A stretch of DNA of 15,512 nt from a virus (Duplodnaviria; Heunggongvirae; Uroviricota; Caudoviricetes), in IMG/VR virus record IMGVR_UViG_2617270964_000015; one strand, written 5' to 3'. Below are positions 1-12,982 of this stretch, in pieces. The translations under genes were made by a program, and so were the position numbers. Positions within the stretch are counted from its first letter, which is position 1. The number at the start of each line of letters is the position of its first letter. The notes beneath the pieces were generated by a model, which searched no databases, had not been told where the DNA came from, and saw nothing but the letters and a program-made list of their open reading frames with translations.

Positions 1-375
1 GACGAACAGTGGGGCTATGTCGGGGCTAAATCGCGCCAGCGCTGGCTGTTTTACGCGTATGACAGTCTCCGGAAGACGGTTGTTGCGCACGTATTCGGTG
101 AACGCACTATGGCGACGCTGGGGCGTCTTATGAGCCTGCTGTCACCCTTTGACGTGGTGATATGGATGACGGATGGCTGGCCGCTGTATGAATCCCGCCT
201 GAAGGGAAAGCTGCACGTAATCAGCAAGCGATATACGCAGCGAATTGAGCGGCATAACCTGAATCTGAGGCAGCACCTGGCACGGCTGGGACGGAAGTCG
301 CTGTCGTTCTCAAAATCGGTGGAGCTGCATGACAAAGTCATCGGGCATTATCTGAACATAAAACACTATCAATAA
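1..375 (+). CDS. insB: IS1 transposase InsB reading frame, 5'-truncated by the window edge
   Basis: Open frame from base 1 to TAA at 373-375; the ORF track reports the internal ATG at 109 (88 aa) but the frame is open from base 1 and matches InsB throughout. IS1 transposase is made as an InsA-InsB fusion by frameshifting, so an independent start is not expected. Confidence 0.85.
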
Positions 376-1388: not shown

Positions 1389-2999
1389 CTATTTAATTCC
1401 CTCATCATTGATAAGATTGGACATCTCTTTCAACATGAGAGTCATTGAAGCTTTCGACCAATTTAGCGGAATGATAGGGCTTGGCGCTTCATGCAAAGTT
1501 CCCGACTTGTGGATATAGTTATAGCTTTCGGGAAGTGCCATTTCTGGTACGCTCCTGCCATTTGCACCAATCATATTCTCGCCTGTTATTTGGGCCAATG
1601 ATCTATTCATAAATTGCACTGAGTCATTCAAATACTCTTCTTTTCTTGATTCTTTATAAACAATTGCTGCTGATTTTGCATACCATGAGTCAAAAAACCA
1701 TTCTGCTTCTGTTGATGGAATGAAGCTCTTTTCTCTTTTCACATGTGAATTTTGATCGGTATCGGTTTTAATATCATTGAACCAAAAATTTGCCGACTGA
1801 TAATTATCCTTCTCGTATCTTTTTATACCATACGGACCTGCTAGTTTTTTAACTATTTTTAGAACCTGCTCTTTTCTTCTGGTGTTTATCTTTGCAAGAT
1901 TTGCAGGATAAATAACATTAAGTAAAGCCGCATCGGCTTCTCTGTAATGTTTATCTTTTTCCAGATAACCTGGGGATTCTCCCCCTAAATCAAGCTGTAA
2001 CGTTATTCTTTCATAACCTTTATCTATGAGGTGGTTCAACCTCGTTGTTGAAAGAGGTTCATCCAGTTCATTGGCTTTAGCTTCGCGTAGTAAATCAGAG
2101 ACAAAAACAGAGTCTTTCTTCGAGAGTAAGTTCGACAAACGTTCCAGTCCAGAGGTCACCAGTGCAACGGAAGATGTGTTTAATCGGGCATCTTCTTCCC
2201 ATGCTCCGGAATCTTCCATAACATAGAAATTGGCTTTATCCAGATAAGCAATCAGCAGCGCAACCGATTTTAATCGGTCACCTTTTTGCCAATCTTCAGC
2301 GTTAATTGTACCAGTGTCGATTGCTTGTATAAGGAGATCAAGATAAAGACCTAACGCATCATTTTGTTTATGGTTCCACAGCTGCGGCTTGCCTTCTTCC
2401 TGCACATCTGCCATCACGGGGAAGTTGCTGTCAAATCGGATATGCACAGCATTCATTTGCCCGGGAACTCCATCCAGTCGTTTGGGGTTGCTAATGACGT
2501 CCTGCATCCGCTTAATCTGGTCGGGCGTAGACATATAATCCCACAGGGTGAGCAGAACCTTTTTTGCGGCTACACTATTTCCCTGATCTGATACTAATGC
2601 CATATAGCCCCATAAACTATCCCTCAGCCAGACAGCATCATAGTGGGTTTCTGCCGCTGTTTTGTCATCTTCGAAAGTAGAAGCAAGAATAAATGTTCCC
2701 CAGGGTTTCTCCGTCAACGTTAACTTTCGTGTGTTTTCTGTTAATGTTAACAACCCTTGAATTTCGTCTTTGGTATAGTGGCTCTTTATTTCATTTTTTA
2801 ATTTGGCTGAGTGAATCAGAAGACGATAATTAGGGTACTTATCTGGATTTAACGATAAATAACTTTTATCTGTTGCTGCCCCCGTGGAATTAAGAATGTT
2901 AAATACAGATTCACTCGTCACTTCTGCCCCTGTCGCCTGGCATGTGCCGCACGAAAATATACCAGCGAGCAGAAGAGTTAATGCAGATTTCCCTTTCAT
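1389..2999 (-). CDS. Glycoside hydrolase family 15-like (glucoamylase-like) exported protein or lipoprotein
   Basis: Long ORF (track 1389..3041 begins at a GTG). The ATG at 2999-2997 gives MKGKSALTLLLAGIFSCGTCQA, a signal peptide with a possible lipobox cysteine. Internal DSGAWEED resembles the GH15 catalytic-region signature (S-G-x-W-E-E). AT-rich gene. Confidence 0.6.
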   Translation of the reverse strand: MKGKSALTLLLAGIFSCGTCQATGAEVTSESVFNILNSTGAATDKSYLSLNPDKYPNYRLLIHSAKLKNEIKSHYTKDEIQGLLTLTENTRKLTLTEKPWGTFILASTFEDDKTAAETHYDAVWLRDSLWGYMALVSDQGNSVAAKKVLLTLWDYMSTPDQIKRMQDVISNPKRLDGVPGQMNAVHIRFDSNFPVMADVQEEGKPQLWNHKQNDALGLYLDLLIQAIDTGTINAEDWQKGDRLKSVALLIAYLDKANFYVMEDSGAWEEDARLNTSSVALVTSGLERLSNLLSKKDSVFVSDLLREAKANELDEPLSTTRLNHLIDKGYERITLQLDLGGESPGYLEKDKHYREADAALLNVIYPANLAKINTRRKEQVLKIVKKLAGPYGIKRYEKDNYQSANFWFNDIKTDTDQNSHVKREKSFIPSTEAEWFFDSWYAKSAAIVYKESRKEEYLNDSVQFMNRSLAQITGENMIGANGRSVPEMALPESYNYIHKSGTLHEAPSPIIPLNWSKASMTLMLKEMSNLINDEGIK

Positions 3000-3306
3000 A
3001 AAATATTCCATCAATCGTTTGTTAAAAGCGTAGATAACCACTTATTTAACAACTTGAAAATAAGGTGTTTTACCTGGGTTGTTACAAAAGGATTGCATTG
3101 CGTAAACGCTTTTTATTTACAACAAAATGGGGAAATATTACGGCGATTGCGAAAAGTCTGAAGCGATTGAATTAAGATAATATAGAAAATCAGATACAGC
3201 AAAAATGGCAGATTGATGAGGCGAAGATAAATTGGAGCGGCGAAGGGAACAATACAACAAGCAACAAGACCAGTAATAAAGGCACATTCTCGAGTTCTAA
3301 AATAGA

Positions 3307-7123: not shown

Positions 7124-7147
7124 GGAAAAATCCCGGCCTCCGTCACT
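7124..7147 (-). terminator. Rho-independent terminator of the ProQ-like/PerC-like operon
   Basis: Minus-strand reading: stop TGA of the PerC-like gene, then gccggga-tttt-tcccggc (perfect 7-bp GC-rich stem, 4-nt loop; plus coordinates 7130-7147), then tttttt (plus-strand a-run 7124-7129). Confidence 0.65.
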
Positions 7148-7430
7148 GACTGCAATTTTTCGATCCAGGGTATTTCCTGAATGCCTTACCATTGGGCTGA
7201 TGTAATCCCATCCCGGCATGTGCCCGGCTGATGGTTTCGCGCATCTCCCCGAAATTATCCTGCCTTGCTGGTGGGCGTGCTGCCTTGTGGATACATTCCG
7301 CACGACGCTTTGCCGCCTGTTCCCGTGCCTTGTCATCATTCGCCAGCATGATGACCTCAGCCCACCGCGCCGCCGCTCTCCGGTACAGGCCACGCGCTTC
7401 CAGTGCTTCCGCTTTGCTGTCGTGAATCAT
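7143..7430 (-). CDS. PerC-family-like small transcriptional regulator (95 aa)
   Basis: N-terminus MIHDSKAEALEARGLYRRAAARWAEVIM matches my recollection of the PerC-family N-terminal signature (AE-LE--G-YRRAA-RW-EV). ATG at 7430-7428 overlaps the upstream stop (ATGA, 7427-7430). Confidence 0.5.
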   Translation of the reverse strand: MIHDSKAEALEARGLYRRAAARWAEVIMLANDDKAREQAAKRRAECIHKAARPPARQDNFGEMRETISRAHAGMGLHQPNGKAFRKYPGSKNCSQ

Positions 7431-7969
7431 GCGCCTGTTTTCTCCCTGGCTGCCCGGCGCTGGCGTTTGCGCTTCTCATTCAGCGCCACCAGCCGCGTTT
7501 CTGCCTCCTGCTGTTCCTGTGGTGTCACTTCCCCACATGGCTGGCCTTTCAGGTCGTAGCGTCCCCCACCAGCCATTAAGGCGCGGTAATAGCGCGGACA
7601 CTGCGCATAAGATGCCAGCGTCGCACGTAATGCCCCTGGCCCGAATGCCAGCCCCCTGACGGCGAGATCCTGCATCAGGTCGTCGAATATCCCCACCTTA
7701 AGCGGCTTCGGTGCTTCCCGGCTGAATAATTCAGGCCACAGTTCGATAAGGCGGTTAACGCGTCTGCGGTTTTTGCGCTGGCGTTTGGTCATATGCCGCC
7801 ACGGTGTCGCCCCTGTGGGCTTCTGCTGCGCTTTCTGGTTATCGGGCATCACTTTATGCGCCGATGTGGTTTTATCCTGCTCCTGTGCCGCCTGCGTCGT
7901 TTTCTGCGGCGTGCCGTAAATGCCTTTAGGTTTTCTGTTAATGGTCAGCTTTGTCATGCTTTGCCCCAT
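7427..7969 (-). CDS. ProQ/FinO-family RNA-binding protein
   Basis: PLKVGIFDDLMQDLAVRGL...YRALMAGGGRYDLKGQPCGEVTPQEQQEAETRL parallels the ProQ N-terminal FinO-like domain as I recall it (PLKIGIF-DL, RYL, R-DL-G-PCGE) and is followed by a basic tail. ATG at 7969 or at 7957-7955; the latter has GGGG 6 nt upstream. Confidence 0.7.
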   Translation of the reverse strand: MGQSMTKLTINRKPKGIYGTPQKTTQAAQEQDKTTSAHKVMPDNQKAQQKPTGATPWRHMTKRQRKNRRRVNRLIELWPELFSREAPKPLKVGIFDDLMQDLAVRGLAFGPGALRATLASYAQCPRYYRALMAGGGRYDLKGQPCGEVTPQEQQEAETRLVALNEKRKRQRRAAREKTGA

Positions 7970-8339: not shown

Positions 8340-10145
8340 TTATGTTCTGTCGTTAATCCCTGTTGCTGCTGGCAACCAGCCATCAGCATCATCATCTAAC
8401 AGAACATTTGTTATCACTCGCCCTTTATCCGGGCCTTTAGTGCATTTAGCCCGCTTATACTCCTTTCCGTATTCCGCCATAGCACCCGGCATATCAGTGC
8501 CAAAGCGTTTCAGTGATACTGGTTTTCCCAGACCATGCGCTGACATATAGGCTAAATAAGCATGATACAGATATCGCCTCGGGCTAAATGGCACTATTCC
8601 CGCATTACCCACCATCATTCCTTCACATTTAACCAACGACATCAGATATCCGCAAAAGTCCACCAGTGAATCACCCTCACGTTTTATCACCAGAGCCTCT
8701 TCTGATTTCTGCTGCTCATATAACAGACGTCTGGCTTCATCCTGGTCAGAAAAACGAGTAAGCAGGTGGCGAATCACTACCGCCAGTTCGCCTTCTATTT
8801 TTTCCACCAGCATGGGATCGCGTTCGTTCTCCGGTACGACCTCAGAGAAATTAAATATCACCCTACGACGCGAGATCCCCCCGCTTCGGTCACTGAATGA
8901 CATGGCGTTATTGTTTACTGCCAGCACTACCGCCGGAATACGAGTGGAGTATGGGGCTTTATGTTTCGGGTCGATCGCCACCTTGTCACCACCAGTAATT
9001 GCCTTAATTCCTGCACCATCACCAGCGTAGCGGGTCATATCCGGCATGATAATCAGCGAAAAGCCAACGACTAACGCGCGTTCCCTTGCGTCTTCCAGCG
9101 CCTTCATGCTTGCCGATACTGTATTGGCCTTACCCGCCAGCATGGTACAAATCTCCGCCATCACACTTTTACCGCTTCCGCCCGGCCCCGTTACCTCAAG
9201 GAATAACTGCCAGTCGTACCGGTTCGCCAGTACCATGAATAATGCCGCCAGTACGCGATCTGCTTTACGATCGTTATTTGCCACCGAACGACGCAGCCAC
9301 TTCCAGAAATTCGGCGCATGTGTTGCCAGTGTTTCCCCCTCTGCTGGTGGGCTGAACGGTAATTCACTGGCATTTAACAACCAGTCATTTTTGTTATGCT
9401 CCCGAAAATTTCCTGTCCGGGTATCAAATACCCCGTTACTGAATCCAATAAGATTCCTGTCTGCCCCGCCCATAACAGGCAGGCTCAATTTCATTGTGTC
9501 TACGGCAAATTTAATGGCGTTTTGCGAATAACTGATTCCAGCATCAATAAAAATCTTCGCCATAGACCGCTGGAGTTCCTTATCAGATACAGGCTCCCAG
9601 ACAATTCCGTTGTAATGGTGAACTACATCAGAATCGTCATTTATAGCCAGTGCCCTTCCATAATATTCAAGCAATACTTCCCCTCTCTGGCTGGCTCCCA
9701 TCTGATTTAGTGCTGGCCTGGGTAGGTCACTATTTTTTGTGACTAATTTCATCGCTGAAACTTCCCCGCGCTCTGCCTGTTCGCGGATCCGTTGCAGGTA
9801 ATCGCGCCAGTTCTCCGGCTCCCGGTCGGTGATGCCTTTGTATAATTTCGCCTCCTGTACGCCAGCCAGTGCCAGTTTTTCAGCGATAGCATTGATCTGG
9901 ATTGGTTCGATCTCCCCCGCGAGATAGACACGCGCAAAGCGGCGTTCATCGTCGACAATGCGGATATTCGCCAGGTCTGCCAGTTGCTTTGGCCCCAAGT
10001 AAACAGGTGGTACGTTATCGCCGTGCTTCCGTCCTTCGCTTTCAATCCAGTGTTGAGCATGGGAGTAAGCATCCGTCCCGGCAAAAATGATTACCTCAGT
10101 GAATTTATCCTTCGGCTGATATTTCAAATTCGGTGCGTTTTTCAC
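8340..10145 (-). CDS. P4-family phage/plasmid primase-like replication protein with P-loop NTPase module
   Basis: 601-aa ORF with Walker A GPGGSGKS. Overall resemblance to satellite/PICI primase-replication proteins is from memory only. Start is GTG at 10145-10143 with GGAGG just upstream, overlapping the upstream gene's stop (GTGA). Stop TAA at 8342-8340. Confidence 0.8.
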   Translation of the reverse strand: MKNAPNLKYQPKDKFTEVIIFAGTDAYSHAQHWIESEGRKHGDNVPPVYLGPKQLADLANIRIVDDERRFARVYLAGEIEPIQINAIAEKLALAGVQEAKLYKGITDREPENWRDYLQRIREQAERGEVSAMKLVTKNSDLPRPALNQMGASQRGEVLLEYYGRALAINDDSDVVHHYNGIVWEPVSDKELQRSMAKIFIDAGISYSQNAIKFAVDTMKLSLPVMGGADRNLIGFSNGVFDTRTGNFREHNKNDWLLNASELPFSPPAEGETLATHAPNFWKWLRRSVANNDRKADRVLAALFMVLANRYDWQLFLEVTGPGGSGKSVMAEICTMLAGKANTVSASMKALEDARERALVVGFSLIIMPDMTRYAGDGAGIKAITGGDKVAIDPKHKAPYSTRIPAVVLAVNNNAMSFSDRSGGISRRRVIFNFSEVVPENERDPMLVEKIEGELAVVIRHLLTRFSDQDEARRLLYEQQKSEEALVIKREGDSLVDFCGYLMSLVKCEGMMVGNAGIVPFSPRRYLYHAYLAYMSAHGLGKPVSLKRFGTDMPGAMAEYGKEYKRAKCTKGPDKGRVITNVLLDDDADGWLPAATGINDRT

Positions 10146-10432
10146 TTCTTACCTCCCGCAACCAACATTGCCCGGATTTTTTTAATATTCGTGGCTGCAC
10201 GTCTCGCCACTGCCTGTTGTTTGTTTTCAAGCAGAATAAAATCACGCTCAAACTGACGGCGCGGCATTACGCAGTCATATTCGTAAGCCTCACGGCGGTA
10301 GGTGATATTGCCTGGCGTAACGTGACGAATAACCACTCGTCCCCCACGCCTGGTGTCGCGGTAAATATCTCCGTGTCTGATTTCAGGTCGAGAGAGGCCG
10401 CTGGCAGTAAAGCCAGAATTTTTCTTTTTCAT
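10142..10432 (-). CDS. Hypothetical basic protein (96 aa), translationally coupled to the primase gene
   Basis: ATG at 10432-10430; stop TGA overlaps the primase GTG start. Lys/Arg-rich, no motif assigned. Confidence 0.5.
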   Translation of the reverse strand: MKKKNSGFTASGLSRPEIRHGDIYRDTRRGGRVVIRHVTPGNITYRREAYEYDCVMPRRQFERDFILLENKQQAVARRAATNIKKIRAMLVAGGKK

Positions 10433-10485
10433 GGTTTTATTTTCCTGTCAGCAGTTCCGGTTTTATTTCCGCACGAATACAGAGT

Positions 10486-10638
10486 TCAGAAAAAAAATTC
10501 AGGAGAACCAACAATCTCATTACTTTTCAGTCGGCATTGTGATTTCACTTTCCCTTTATCCAAGTAAACCAGCACGCGTCCGGTGAAATCATCTGGCACA
10601 CTCAGGGTAATTGTCATTGTTGCTTGCTGATTATCCAT
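10486..10638 (-). CDS. Small ORF (50 aa) carrying the third copy of an FTG repeat unit; likely the out-of-frame 3' part of the upstream gene
   Basis: ATG at 10638-10636 lies immediately after the homopolymer. The translation MDNQQATMTITLSVPDDFTGRVLVYLDKGKV... repeats the FTG-x-LV unit found twice in the upstream ORF. Confidence 0.3.
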   Translation of the reverse strand: MDNQQATMTITLSVPDDFTGRVLVYLDKGKVKSQCRLKSNEIVGSPEFFF

Positions 10639-11000
10639 GATTCCCCCCCCCCCTGAATAACCTGATAACCGCAACTGGTCAGCAATTCGATAAATTCCGG
10701 CAATGTGCCGAAACAGCAATCATCACGCAGACGTTCGCGGGATACCTCAACGTCGTTTTCATAATGGCTCACCATGCGTCCGGTAAAATGCAAATCATCA
10801 TCGTGATGGCACGTTGACGGTTTAATCAGTCGCGCACGCTCTGCCAGTTCCAGCAATGCTTCAACACTTCCGGCAATTGCACCATCCGGCAGGTGGTAAT
10901 TACGCACTATGCGCCCGTTCTCCACATGGACCAGTAGCTGCCCGGTAAATTTCTCGTCAAACTGAATGCGGTTAAGGTCGGTAAGTGACAGGTTAATCAT
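10614..11000 (-). CDS. Hypothetical protein with two internal repeats (128 aa as read), ending just after a G11 tract
   Basis: ATG at 11000-10998 overlaps the upstream stop (ATGATTAA). Repeats DEKFTGQLLVHVENGRIV and DLHFTGRMVSHYENDVEV. C-terminus ...VIQGGGESWIISKQQ is encoded across the homopolymer. Confidence 0.5.
   Translation of the reverse strand: MINLSLTDLNRIQFDEKFTGQLLVHVENGRIVRNYHLPDGAIAGSVEALLELAERARLIKPSTCHHDDDLHFTGRMVSHYENDVEVSRERLRDDCCFGTLPEFIELLTSCGYQVIQGGGESWIISKQQ
10643..10653. repeat. Homopolymeric tract C11 (G11 on the coding minus strand) inside a coding region
   Basis: ttcccccccccccctg; eleven consecutive C at 10643-10653. Confidence 0.9.
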
Positions 11001-11358
11001 GGCGCACCTCCTGGCGAATACGGGCGGCGAATACCATCACGCAGCCATCAGGAGATTGCTGGCGTGCTTCCTGTTCGCTGGTGGCCTCGATGTGAATCAC
11101 GCGCGGTTGTGCCGTACTCAGGGCGATAAAACGCCAGATAGAATTGTTTTCGCATTTCTGAATAAACAGCGTGTTTTCTTCGCGCCCTTTCCATGTTGCC
11201 GAGATATAGCCCATGTCATTGAGCATCTCGCAGGCATCCACCAGCGTATCAGCGGCTACGTGTACAGTGTTTTTACCGTCAGCTATGCAATCACGGTGCA
11301 CCGCCAGGAAGGTGTATATAAATTTAGGGTGAGTTTGGGTATGCTGTGTTCCAGCCAT
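10993..11358 (-). CDS. Hypothetical protein (121 aa), first gene of the primase operon
   Basis: ATG at 11358-11356 with GAGG upstream on the coding strand. This is the 3' third of the 382-aa ORF-track entry 10993..12141, whose upstream part crosses the divergent regulatory region and a plus-strand gene. Stop overlaps the next start. Confidence 0.5.
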   Translation of the reverse strand: MAGTQHTQTHPKFIYTFLAVHRDCIADGKNTVHVAADTLVDACEMLNDMGYISATWKGREENTLFIQKCENNSIWRFIALSTAQPRVIHIEATSEQEARQQSPDGCVMVFAARIRQEVRHD

Positions 11359-11557
11359 AATCGTTACCTCGTTTAACGGTTTGGTTAGAAGCCCCGTTAC
11401 TGCTCCAACAGTGCGGGGCTTCGTTGTTTCAATTGCTGAATTGCATGTATCAGCCCTTGTGGTATTCAGATTACATTTTGGTGAATACCATTTCAAGTCT
11501 TTTTTGGTATTCACTTTTGTATTACACTGCATCCCGTTATTAATCGGAGGTGCAAAC
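11359..11557. promoter_or_regulatory. Divergent intergenic control region with hairpin and GGTATTCA operator-like repeats
   Basis: Stem-loop gaagccccg-(17 nt)-cggggcttc at about 11390-11425. Three copies of GGTATTCA / TGAATACC at about 11460-11516, one inverted. GGAGG at 11546-11550 precedes the ATG at 11558. Confidence 0.45.
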
Positions 11558-11863
11558 ATGTCCACGAGTTCTGTTAACAATAAGTCACAGCAACTGAATG
11601 CCAGATTTCCACATGAAGTAGTGAGTGGCATTGAGGCATCCCTACAGCCAGGGGAAACTAAAGCGAATTTTATAGTTACGGCTGTACGCGGTGAGATCGC
11701 CCGCCGCCAGGCAGAAGGAAGCGGAGAAAACCCCCTAGTTTCTTCGCTCGATGCGCTGGCGCAGGTGGAAAAAATCGGTGTCAAAGCTGCCGAGGAGATC
11801 GGGCAACTCGTCACCGTCGCGCGTGAAGAACTCCAGCGGCGCAAGGCCAAAGAACAGGAGTAG
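11558..11863 (+). CDS. Ribbon-helix-helix (Arc/MetJ-type) DNA-binding regulator, 101 aa
   Basis: ATG at 11558 seven nt after GGAGG; the ORF-track start at 11381 is unlikely because it crosses the control region. QQLNARFPHEVVSGIEA then ANFIVTAVRGEIARRQ fits the beta-strand-helix-helix pattern of Arc-like repressors. It is the only confident plus-strand gene inside the element. Confidence 0.55.
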   Translation: MSTSSVNNKSQQLNARFPHEVVSGIEASLQPGETKANFIVTAVRGEIARRQAEGSGENPLVSSLDALAQVEKIGVKAAEEIGQLVTVAREELQRRKAKEQE

Positions 11864-12087
11864 TTGATCAGCACCGGGCAACCAGAAAAAATCGTATCAG
11901 TTGCGCCACCAGCAAATTTTTTTGCTTTCCGGACGACGTTGCCAACGGCATTTTGCAGCAAAATATTCCGCATTTCTGGCGTACTGTAGTAACGGTGATC
12001 AGCGCCTTCACTCTGTGCGACCACAACGCTATAATCTGCCTCGTAGACAGTAAGCAATATAGCGCAGTAGAATATTCGTTCACAAAG

Positions 12088-12119
12088 GCGCTCCGGCAAC
12101 GGGGCGCTTTCTCTTTTTG
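12088..12119 (+). terminator. Intrinsic terminator-like hairpin, plus strand
   Basis: gcgctcc-ggcaac-ggggcgc (7-bp stem with one G-U pair, 12088-12107) followed by tttctctttttg (12108-12119). It lies about 225 nt past the stop of the plus-strand regulator gene and about 27 nt past the stop of the convergent minus-strand gene. Confidence 0.5.
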
Positions 12120-12133
12120 TAACGGTCAGAGCG

Positions 12134-12982
12134 TTACACATGGCTGTTTTCCTCCATGCGACGGGCTAACCAACGCTGCGAAAGACGAATTAATTCAGCT
12201 TTCCGCTGGTGGTAGTCCTGGCCTAACTCAATCAGCGTGATATTGCTCTGCTCAAGGTAAGAAAGGTGCTCAAGCTGCAACGTGCTCATGTGGTCGCGTG
12301 GTTCGCCTGTAATGCCGTTCGCCTGCGCCCACTGTTTTGCAGTCATGCCACCCAGCACGATACGCGCCAGCATATTGGCTTCCGTGGTGTAGTGGTGCTG
12401 GAGTGTGTTTTTACCCAGCTCAGCCCGGTATGCTTCCAGCGCGGCGCACATCGGCTTAAAGTAGCTGGCAACGGTGATACGGGCTTTCAGTTCCCGGCGT
12501 AACGCTGCGGAACGCACTGGCGCTACCTTGTGTAGCTCCTCCTCGCATTTGATGAAGTACTGACGAACGGCACGGCCCTGTTCGGTGCGTTCGACCATCG
12601 CCAGTTCTTTTGCCATGTTCGTGGAGATCAAATAGTCTTCACTGCGACGATCACCGCCGCGCTTTGTTGTCCAATCAGAATCAAACTGTTCAATATTTAC
12701 ACTTTGGTTCCCCCGTTTCGGGGAATCAAAGTACAAATTTTCTACAACTTTAAAATCCACGCCATTTTTAAATCCGTACTCATCAATACGTCCTTTAATC
12801 CAGGTAGTGAAATCACGGCCTCCCCCGAGCGCCTTATGCAACGCTCTGGCGCTAACAATATTGGTTTCACGCCCGCCAATAACGCCGGAAATAACCGGGA
12901 TAATTTCGCCGAAATTTTGCAGATTCTGGTTTTCAGGCCGAACTAAGCCCTGCCCCTGTACGGGCGTTTTTCGCTGTTTCAT
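12134..12982 (-). CDS. AntA/AntB-family phage antirepressor-like protein
   Basis: ATG at 12982-12980 with AGGAG 5 nt upstream. N-terminal region ARALHKALGGGRDFTTWIKGRIDEYGFKNGVDFKV ... MAKELAMVERTEQGRAVRQYFIKCEE matches the AntA-domain pattern I recall (DF-TWIK-RI--YGF, AKELAMVER--G---RQYFI-CE). Confidence 0.65.
   Translation of the reverse strand: MKQRKTPVQGQGLVRPENQNLQNFGEIIPVISGVIGGRETNIVSARALHKALGGGRDFTTWIKGRIDEYGFKNGVDFKVVENLYFDSPKRGNQSVNIEQFDSDWTTKRGGDRRSEDYLISTNMAKELAMVERTEQGRAVRQYFIKCEEELHKVAPVRSAALRRELKARITVASYFKPMCAALEAYRAELGKNTLQHHYTTEANMLARIVLGGMTAKQWAQANGITGEPRDHMSTLQLEHLSYLEQSNITLIELGQDYHQRKAELIRLSQRWLARRMEENSHV

What the first reader, a model, noticed from the sequence alone, without database searches (positions are those of the whole stretch)
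10486..11000. C11 homopolymer splits a triple-repeat gene: phase-variation candidate or homopolymer error
Eleven consecutive C (10643-10653) lie inside the coding sequence. As read, the upstream ORF stops 9 codons after the tract and a new ATG follows it. With one extra C the two would fuse into a single protein of about 170 aa with three copies of the same repeat unit. Tracts of this length are prone to slipped-strand mispairing, so this is either an ON/OFF switch, a recent frameshift pseudogene, or a sequencing error.
Basis: seen in the sequence. Interest (0 to 1): 0.6.

Follow-up and report, generated by a model that had tools for sequence, protein, structure and literature searches.

The report
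Slippery G-run at a gene junction
The run of eleven C's is a slippage-prone stretch in the last few codons of one small prophage-island gene, lying on the ribosome-binding site of the next gene. It does not split a gene: relatives show the two genes are normally separate, and one base of the run is probably a sequencing miscall.

Summary
It does not split a three-repeat gene. In more than 30 related loci the site reads GGGGGTG. There it separates a conserved two-repeat gene of 121 aa from a one-repeat gene of 66 aa, with an 8-nt stop/start overlap (ATGGATAA). No fused 121+66 protein was found in three database searches. The G-run is the Shine-Dalgarno motif of the downstream gene, and it starts right after the upstream protein's last conserved residues. 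In the window's own lineage (99-100% identical elements) the site reads G9-T-G in about 19 of 23 contigs, G10-T-G in 3 and G11-T-G in 1; a G8 form is inferred from one exact protein match. Slippage polymorphism is therefore real, but it only changes a 3-12 residue non-conserved tail and the stop position. With the T present, no frame gives a fusion. Only this assembly (GCA_000601135.1) shows a pure G11. A near-identical independent assembly keeps the T, and T-to-G after GG is the classic Illumina systematic error. A second homopolymer (A8, 10490-10497) truncates the downstream gene. The finding is ordinary to mildly interesting.

The parts
10643..10653 (-). G11 run as assembled. Sister assemblies read G9 (10653-10645), T (10644), G (10643). 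It encodes the Gly codons of the upstream gene's tail and is the Shine-Dalgarno motif of the downstream gene.
   Evidence: Predicted pairing with the anti-SD sequence is -10.7 to -11.7 kcal/mol, like the GGAGGTG junctions of the same operon.
10614..11000 (-). Upstream gene, 128 aa as read. It has two phrog_340 units with the conserved core ending at ...GYQVIQ, followed by a frameshifted tail GGGESWIISKQQ. The canonical form is 121 aa and ends QGVNHG*.
   Evidence: The exact protein occurs on 23 contigs. Median dN/dS of the core is 0.20.
10631..10638 (-). ATGGATAA: start codon of the downstream gene (10638-10636) overlapping the ancestral TAA stop of the upstream gene (10633-10631). This stop is used when the tract region is 7, 10 or 13 nt long.
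10614..10617 (-). ATGA: the TGA stop actually used by the upstream ORF in this frame, overlapping the in-frame Met8 codon of the downstream gene.
10486..10638 (-). Downstream gene, one phrog_340 unit, truncated to 50 aa. The canonical form is 66 aa and would end at 10437.
10490..10497 (-). T8 run on the coding strand (A8 on +). One T more than the usual T7, which frameshifts the downstream gene to ...EFFF*.
10993..11358 (-). Icd-like gene immediately upstream. Its stop overlaps the two-unit gene's start by 8 nt (ATGATTAA), preceded by the SD AGGAGGTG.
10142..10432 (-). DUF4222 gene, next in the operon.
8340..10145 (-). DNA primase (D5_N/DUF5906) gene, the end of the early operon.

Best explanation
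The run is a hypermutable poly-G that grew out of the Shine-Dalgarno motif at the junction of two separate, overlapping small genes. These genes lie in the early (replication) operon of an integrase/AlpA/primase satellite-type island. The inferred history is GGAGGTG-like, then GGGGGTG, then G9TG. The tract begins just after the last conserved residues of the upstream two-repeat protein. Replication slippage therefore only swaps a short non-conserved tail: ..VNHG*, ..ESWIISKQQ* or an immediate stop. It also moves the upstream stop relative to the downstream start: an 8-nt overlap, a 25-nt read-past ending in ATGA on Met8, or a stop 3 nt before the ATG. In every frame the stop stays within about 25 nt of a start codon, so re-initiation remains possible and the length changes are tolerated; this is near-neutral slippage noise rather than a switch. 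The window's lineage carries the +1 state (G9TG, 128-aa protein). The pure G11 of this assembly is most likely a T-to-G consensus miscall after the G9 run. Shown here: the separate-gene ancestry, the length polymorphism, the position relative to conserved residues, and that the pure G11 is private to this assembly. Inferred: SD function, coupling, neutrality, and the miscall.
For: 1. Separate genes. All 18 class A loci in the survey other than the window read GGGGGTG, with genes of 366 and 201 bp overlapping by 8 nt; nine further loci fetched later read the same. The two-unit architecture of 114-121 aa is conserved down to 21-25% identity and always ends at GYQV plus 2-8 variable residues. No fused 121+66 protein was found.
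2. Real polymorphism. Sampling by the neighbouring DUF4222 protein, which is blind to tract length, gave roughly 19 contigs with G9TG, 3 with G10TG and 1 with G11TG; the DNA was read in representative loci, and the tallies rest on the tool's grouping of similar places. Exact protein look-up found tails matching G8TG, G9TG, G10TG and G11TG on the lineage-specific core.
3. The same site in the sister junction class. Here the two-unit gene is followed by a different, 77-aa gene. G6, G7, G8, G9 and G10 are seen directly in DNA, a G5 state is inferred from the fused proteins, and G6 to G8 occur in closed genomes.
4. All 21 G/C runs of 9 or more in 849 kb of related loci are at this junction.
5. SD role. 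The run sits in the same register as AGGAGGTG at the neighbouring junctions, and predicted anti-SD pairing is equally strong.
6. The gene is under purifying selection: median dN/dS is 0.20.
7. Private base. The window is 100% identical to GCA_000601135.1. All other assemblies read T at position 10 of the run, including L091 (SRR1186660), which shares the T8 and differs from the window by that one base in 1941 nt. GGT read as GGG is the strongest Illumina systematic-error motif (PMC3295828).
Against: Neutrality is inferred, not measured. The +1 allele dominates its lineage, which could reflect selection rather than founder effect. All class A long-tract evidence comes from short-read draft or Logan assemblies; none of the 5,426 closed E. 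coli genomes searched shows a full-length match with a long tract at this junction type. Part of the 8-11 spread could therefore be assembly error at a G9 run. The sequencing platform of GCA_000601135.1 is unknown to me, and I could not confirm that SRR1186660 is the same isolate. The contig is listed for 2 samples, which could mean the G11 was reproduced.
Confidence: 0.65

Rival explanations
1. The tract is a true contingency (phase-variation) tract. Its length is selected to toggle the junction between coupled, read-past and stop-before-start states, and in the sister junction type a real two-gene fusion. This would tune how much of each paralogous small protein the island makes.
For: All three frames occur among near-identical elements. 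In the sister junction type, states inferred as G5 and G8 give 196/197-aa fusions annotated in dozens of assemblies, including E. albertii. Runs of 9 or more occur nowhere else in 849 kb of related DNA. Each frame leaves a stop codon within about 25 nt of a start codon.
Against: Most relatives have an interrupted, short run (GGGGGTG or G6), so the long tract is derived and not conserved. The tract is at the 3' end, whereas inactivating homopolymers cluster at 5' ends (PMC2831843). Length is uniform within sampled lineages: nine listed closed genomes, six of them O157:H7, give the alignment pattern of the G8 locus L013, and four others that of the G9 locus L012. No functional difference between the states is known.
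Confidence: 0.12
2. The small genes are decaying in a degenerating island. Selection on them is relaxed, so homopolymer frameshifts accumulate: a G-run expansion in one gene and T8 in the next. Both genes are becoming pseudogenes.
For: There are two homopolymer frameshifts within 160 nt in this window. T8 removes the predicted C-terminal helix of the 66-aa protein. The O157/O121 clade combines G8-G10 with T6, and in L013 one module gene carries an internal stop; RefSeq annotates these as pseudogenes. Some islands lack the two-unit gene altogether.
Against: The G-run frameshift leaves all conserved residues of the upstream protein intact. Median dN/dS of the core is 0.20. The rest of the island (integrase, primase and others) shows no window-specific frameshifts.
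Confidence: 0.15
3. This is a split pseudogene or ON/OFF switch of a single three-repeat gene of about 170-187 aa.
For: A pure G12 would fuse the frames. The three units are homologous.
Against: No fused homologue appeared among 43 and 88 hits, nor in exact look-ups of the predicted fusions, nor among the 25 representative clusters. Relatives encode two genes with their own SD, ATG and an overlapping stop. With the T retained, as in every sister assembly, the +2 frame hits TGA at once.
Confidence: 0.02
4. The whole frameshift is an assembly artefact. The strain really carries the canonical short GGGGGTG or an in-frame run.
For: Homopolymers are error-prone, and this assembly has two homopolymer-associated peculiarities.
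Against: The same 11-nt length (G9TG) and 128-aa product are present on 23 contigs from independent NCBI and Logan assemblies. T8 is reproduced in L091 and in 24 or more contigs of other backgrounds. Other homopolymers and long genes of the window agree with relatives.
Confidence: 0.03
5. This is recoding at the RNA level. RNA polymerase or the ribosome slips on the G9-G11 run, so one allele yields a mixture of tails, and a fusion if the run is a pure G11.
For: The long run lies in a transcribed and translated region. The tolerance of all frames is compatible with this reading.
Against: The run is not conserved among homologues, unlike programmed slippage sites. From my own knowledge, bacterial transcriptional slippage is documented mainly for A/T runs. 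No second conserved frame follows the site.
Confidence: 0.05

Closest known systems
Homopolymeric-tract contingency loci. Examples are the poly-G/C tracts of Neisseria, Haemophilus and Campylobacter genes, and the poly-A tract in Listeria inlA (PMC2831843).
   Same: A long mononucleotide run inside coding sequence, with length polymorphism among near-identical strains that puts all three frames into the population.
   Different: Here the run lies in the last codons, after all conserved residues, so frameshifts do not inactivate the protein. The run is not conserved in the family. Switching rate and phenotype are unknown. E. coli is not a species known for this kind of switching (own knowledge).
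Translationally coupled, overlapping small genes of phage and satellite early operons, where the SD lies inside the upstream gene and the stop overlaps the start.
   Same: Every junction of this operon has an SD-like GGAGGTG motif 4 nt before an ATG, and a stop 5 nt into the next gene (8-nt overlap). The G-run is that SD with A replaced by G.
   Different: In the window the upstream stop has moved to 25 nt past the start, where it overlaps Met8 as ATGA. Coupling itself was not measured.
Illumina systematic GGT-to-GGG miscall (Meacham et al. 2011, PMC3295828).
   Same: The single base that distinguishes this assembly from all its sisters is a T read as G directly after a run of G.
   Different: The platform of this assembly is unknown to me and reads were not available. 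A real T-to-G mutation cannot be excluded.
Programmed transcriptional or ribosomal slippage sites (dnaX, IS transposases).
   Same: A homopolymer at a point where two frames meet.
   Different: There is no conservation of the slippery run, no conserved extended frame, and the run is G rather than A/T.
PHROG family phrog_340 (unknown function).
   Same: Both proteins match it (E=9e-28 with two stretches; E=2.5e-17 with one stretch).
   Different: The family has no known function or structure. There is no homologue in 50,697 deposited phage genomes by tblastn.

Membership tests
Homopolymer-based phase-variable (contingency) gene | Long mononucleotide tract (about 8 or more) in an ORF or promoter | tested here: met
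   G11 as assembled and G9 in sister assemblies.
Homopolymer-based phase-variable (contingency) gene | Tract length differs among otherwise near-identical strains | tested here: met
   G9 to G11 (+TG) read in DNA in elements 99.4-99.9% identical, and G8 inferred from an exact protein match.
Homopolymer-based phase-variable (contingency) gene | A frame change switches a functional product ON/OFF by truncating conserved domains | tested here: not met
   The tract follows the last conserved residues (alignment A4). The three frames give tails of 3 to 12 residues.
Homopolymer-based phase-variable (contingency) gene | Reversible high-frequency switching within a clonal population | not testable with these tools
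   This needs raw reads or single-colony amplicons.
Frameshift-split pseudogene of a single three-repeat gene | Intact single-ORF orthologues exist | tested here: not met
   No 121+66 fusion. Orthologues are two genes.
Translationally coupled overlapping gene pair | SD inside the upstream gene at proper spacing from the downstream ATG | tested here: met
   GGGGGTG, G9TG and G11 lie 4 nt before the ATG, with duplex energies of -10.7 to -11.7 kcal/mol, like the GGAGGTG junctions.
Translationally coupled overlapping gene pair | Upstream stop overlaps or abuts the downstream start | tested here: met
   There is an 8-nt overlap ATGGATAA in relatives. In the window the stop is 25 nt past ATG1 and overlaps Met8 as ATGA.
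Translationally coupled overlapping gene pair | Downstream translation depends on upstream translation | not testable with these tools
   This needs reporter constructs.
Programmed slippage / recoding site | Slippery run conserved across homologues, with a conserved second frame | tested here: not met
   Most homologues have GGGGGTG or G6, and the tail after the run is not conserved.
phrog_340 | Significant match to the family profile | tested here: met
   E=9.4e-28 (two stretches) and 2.5e-17.
P4-like / PICI-like phage satellite island | Tyrosine integrase at a tRNA, AlpA, Icd-like gene and a D5/DUF5906 primase in one element | tested here: met
   ORFs and RefSeq annotation of relatives, with tRNA-Gly next to int.
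P4-like / PICI-like phage satellite island | Capsid-redirecting or helper-exploitation genes (P4 sid/delta/psu or PICI rpp), and induction by a helper phage | not tested
   None is annotated in relatives. No Rfam hit, including the P4 immunity RNA. Not pursued further.

The most novel reading that the evidence does not exclude
The poly-G at this junction may be a selected contingency tract in E. coli. By slipping, it would switch a pair of paralogous small genes in a phage-satellite early operon between overlap-coupled, read-past and stop-before-start configurations. In the sister junction type it would also produce a genuine two-gene fusion of 196/197 aa. This would change the dose or architecture of proteins that deal with a helper phage. 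It would be a homopolymer-driven gene fusion/fission switch in a species where repeat-mediated phase variation is not established.
Probability: 0.1. Interest if true: 0.55.

Novelty: new member of a known kind. Interest (0 to 1): 0.25.

Why it matters
The practical value is for annotation. The 128-aa and 50-aa ORFs are frameshift variants of a 121-aa and a 66-aa gene. They should not be merged into one gene, and not necessarily called pseudogenes. The case also shows how a Shine-Dalgarno motif embedded in coding sequence (GGAGGTG to GGGGGTG) can seed a runaway homopolymer. Overlapping-gene junctions tolerate this because all three frames terminate near the next start. If the length variation turned out to be functional, it would be a rare example of repeat-mediated switching in E. 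coli mobile elements. The present evidence favours tolerated mutational noise plus a one-base miscall.

Tried and rejected
- Pfam gave no family for either small protein. The label PF27490.1, precomputed on relatives, is not in the local Pfam copy.
- AlphaFold2 with a 15-sequence alignment gave pLDDT 42.6. With 21 more diverse sequences it gave 61.4 and a beta-beta-beta-alpha pattern per unit.
- tblastn of both proteins against 50,697 phage genomes found nothing.
- Rfam found nothing in the window.
- The first genome-contig scan found nothing. The second hit only two unrelated Bacillaceae loci, L016 and L017.
- P0084 (1558 aa, 16 stretches) is a Cys-rich low-complexity repeat, not a homologue.
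I replaced it by sampling through the neighbouring DUF4222 protein.
- A literature search for the assembly accession found nothing, and a search for DUF4222 listed five papers, none opened or followed up.
- I considered general assembly-wide homopolymer error and rejected it. Against relatives 97-99.8% identical over about 11 kb, the only window-specific coding indels are the G-run and the T8.

Full report
**Observation**

The + strand carries eleven C at 10643-10653. It is the only G/C run of that length in the window, and none appeared in 200 dinucleotide-preserving shuffles. The genes here are on the minus strand.

- ORF 11000..10614 (128 aa) ends ...GYQVIQGGGESWIISKQQ*.
- An ATG at 10638 opens a 50-aa ORF ending at 10486.

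The three repeat units are real. phrog_340 matches the upstream protein twice (E=9e-28) and the downstream protein once (E=2.5e-17). BLASTP of the 66-aa form against the 121-aa form gives E=3e-8 for unit 1 and 1e-3 for unit 2.

**What relatives show**

The region belongs to an island of the integrase/AlpA/AntA/Icd-like/DUF4222/primase type. In relatives it sits at a tRNA-Gly next to the ETT2 secretion-system remnant. Parts of it are present in more than 1,000 closed E. coli genomes.

In every relative with the same downstream gene the site reads CA-GGGGGTG-AATYATGGRTAA. That covers the 18 such loci in the survey of E. coli genomes, metagenomes and IMG/VR contigs, and nine more loci fetched later.

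RefSeq annotates two genes there, of 366 bp (121 aa) and 201 bp (66 aa), overlapping by 8 nt (ATGGATAA). The other overlapping junctions of the small-gene chain have the same design. A GGAGGTG-like motif lies 4 nt before an ATG, and the previous gene's stop lies 5 nt inside the next gene. Predicted pairing of these motifs with the 16S anti-SD sequence is -9.5 to -11.7 kcal/mol, including GGGGGTG, G9TG and G11. The G-run is therefore the Shine-Dalgarno motif of the downstream gene with its A replaced by G.

**The upstream gene is a complete two-unit gene**

- A scan of 1.84 billion representative proteins found only 25 related clusters. They are single-unit or two-unit proteins, with no three-unit protein.
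- A profile search found 88 relatives. Two-unit proteins of 114-121 aa reach Salmonella and Hafnia at 21-48% identity.
- In the alignment the conserved part ends at GYQV, followed by 2-8 unconserved residues.
- A query built as the hypothetical 187-aa fusion retrieved no protein covering both parts.
- Exact look-ups of the predicted fusions (187 and 171 aa) found nothing among about 15 billion sequences.
- The core is under purifying selection, with median dN/dS 0.20 over 647 allele pairs.

The tract therefore does not split a gene. It lies in a junction-encoded tail.

**The tract is nevertheless a real slippage hotspot**

The window is 100% identical to contig JHDG01000151.1 of GCA_000601135.1. 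Its exact 128-aa protein occurs on 23 contigs.

I sampled by the adjacent DUF4222 protein, which does not depend on tract length. By the tool's grouping of similar places, of 24 contigs read about 19 carry G9-T-G, 3 carry G10-T-G, 1 carries G11-T-G and 1 lacks the two-unit gene. I read the DNA in representative loci that are 99.4-99.9% identical to the window. Exact look-ups with the lineage-specific core (Asp83) found these tails:

| Tail | Inferred tract |
|---|---|
| QGGVNHG | G8TG |
| QGGGESWIISKQQ | G9TG |
| QGGG | G10TG |
| QGGGVNHG | G11TG |

The G5, G6 and G7 forms on this core were not found.

At the sister junction type the two-unit gene is followed by a different, 77-aa gene. There I counted G6 in 35 loci, G7 in 10, G8 in 4, G9 in 1 and G10 in 2. 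A G5 state is inferred from protein records. The inferred G5 and G8 states there give in-frame fusions of 196/197 aa, present in dozens of assemblies. Closed genomes show spans matching G6, G7 and G8. Length looks uniform within sampled lineages: nine listed closed genomes (six of them O157:H7) give the alignment pattern of the G8 locus L013, and four others that of the G9 locus L012. All 21 G/C runs of 9 or more in 849 kb of related DNA are at this one junction.

**Consequences of each frame (read from the sequences)**

With the T present:
- n = 5, 8 or 11 ends at the ancestral TAA, giving the 8-nt overlap.
- n = 6 or 9 reads ESWIISKQQ and stops at a TGA that overlaps the in-frame Met8 of the downstream gene as ATGA.
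- n = 7 or 10 stops at the TGA formed by the T itself, 3 nt before the ATG.

No frame fuses the genes. Only a pure G-run of 12 could do so.

**The pure G11 is private to this assembly**

Thirteen fetched loci from other assemblies of the lineage read G9-T-G, and two more read G10-T-G and G11-T-G; some loci are the same contigs fetched twice. L080 and L099 differ from the window over 2-4 kb only at that base and at the T7/T8 run. L091, a Logan assembly of SRR1186660, shares the T8 yet reads G9-T-G, with one mismatch in 1941 nt.

A T read as G after GG is the most characteristic Illumina systematic error (PMC3295828). I infer a consensus miscall, but I could not see reads, and I know neither the platform nor whether SRR1186660 is the same isolate. 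The assembly is not generally homopolymer-poor. Against relatives 97-99.8% identical, the only window-specific coding indels are these two.

**Second homopolymer**

The coding-strand T8 (A8 at 10490-10497) truncates the 66-aa gene to 50 aa. This removes the predicted C-terminal helix. T8 recurs on 24 or more contigs in several backgrounds, and T6 marks the G8-G10 (O157/O121) clade.

**Function of the proteins**

This remains unknown. There is no Pfam family, no deposited-phage homologue, only a moderate-confidence model, and no fold match.

**Verdict**

The split-gene and ON/OFF readings are not supported. The slippage-prone reading is supported, and the sequencing-error reading probably applies to a single base. 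The most likely account is tolerated slippage at an SD-derived G-run in a non-conserved tail at an overlapping gene junction. Homopolymers used for reversible inactivation sit near 5' ends (PMC2831843), and this one does not. A regulatory role through translational coupling, or through fusion in the sister junction, is not excluded; I put its probability at about 0.1.

Noticed in passing
window 10490-10497 (A8 on +, T8 on the coding strand): A second homopolymer frameshift truncates the downstream 66-aa gene to 50 aa. The T8 allele recurs on 24 or more contigs in several backgrounds. T6 marks the G8-G10 (O157/O121) clade, where RefSeq calls the gene frameshifted.
   Followed up: yes
L012/L013 1229-1260; proteins P0004, P0060, P0065, P0071: At the sister junction (two-unit gene followed by a 77-aa gene), tract states inferred as G5 and G8 fuse the two genes in frame into 196/197-aa proteins. 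These are annotated in dozens of E. coli assemblies and in E. albertii. G6/G9 keep the genes separate, and G7T/G10 stop at TAA right after the run.
   Followed up: partly
L004 1405-2897; L014 4155-5038; window 10142-11358: The module between the Icd-like gene and DUF4222 is mosaic, with one, two or four small genes. The genes in the chain are linked by an SD-like motif and an 8-nt stop/start overlap. PHROG 2512 looks like a fusion of two of these genes.
   Followed up: partly
window 10993-12141 (-) and 11558-11863 (+): The 382-aa ORF is an artefactually long open frame. Only its 3' end (at most 10993-11358) is the Icd-like gene. A YlcI/YnfO-family gene lies on the opposite strand at 11558-11863.
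   Followed up: partly
window 7143-7969 (-): A ProQ/FinO-family gene (7427-7969) overlaps a PerC-family regulator gene (7143-7430) by 4 nt. PerC-type regulators control virulence loci in pathogenic E. coli (own knowledge).
   Followed up: no
window 51-375, 310-1257, 1389-3041: The island's far end abuts an IS1 fragment, a YscQ/HrcQ-type ETT2 type III secretion remnant and a glycoside hydrolase family 15 gene. In relatives the integrase end lies next to tRNA-Gly.
   Followed up: no
related loci (contexts listed): Several G7-G8 runs elsewhere in related islands also lie just upstream of an ATG, for example CAACGGGGGGGATTAGATG. This suggests that G-rich ribosome-binding sites in general seed homopolymers in these elements.
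   Followed up: no
   Followed up: no
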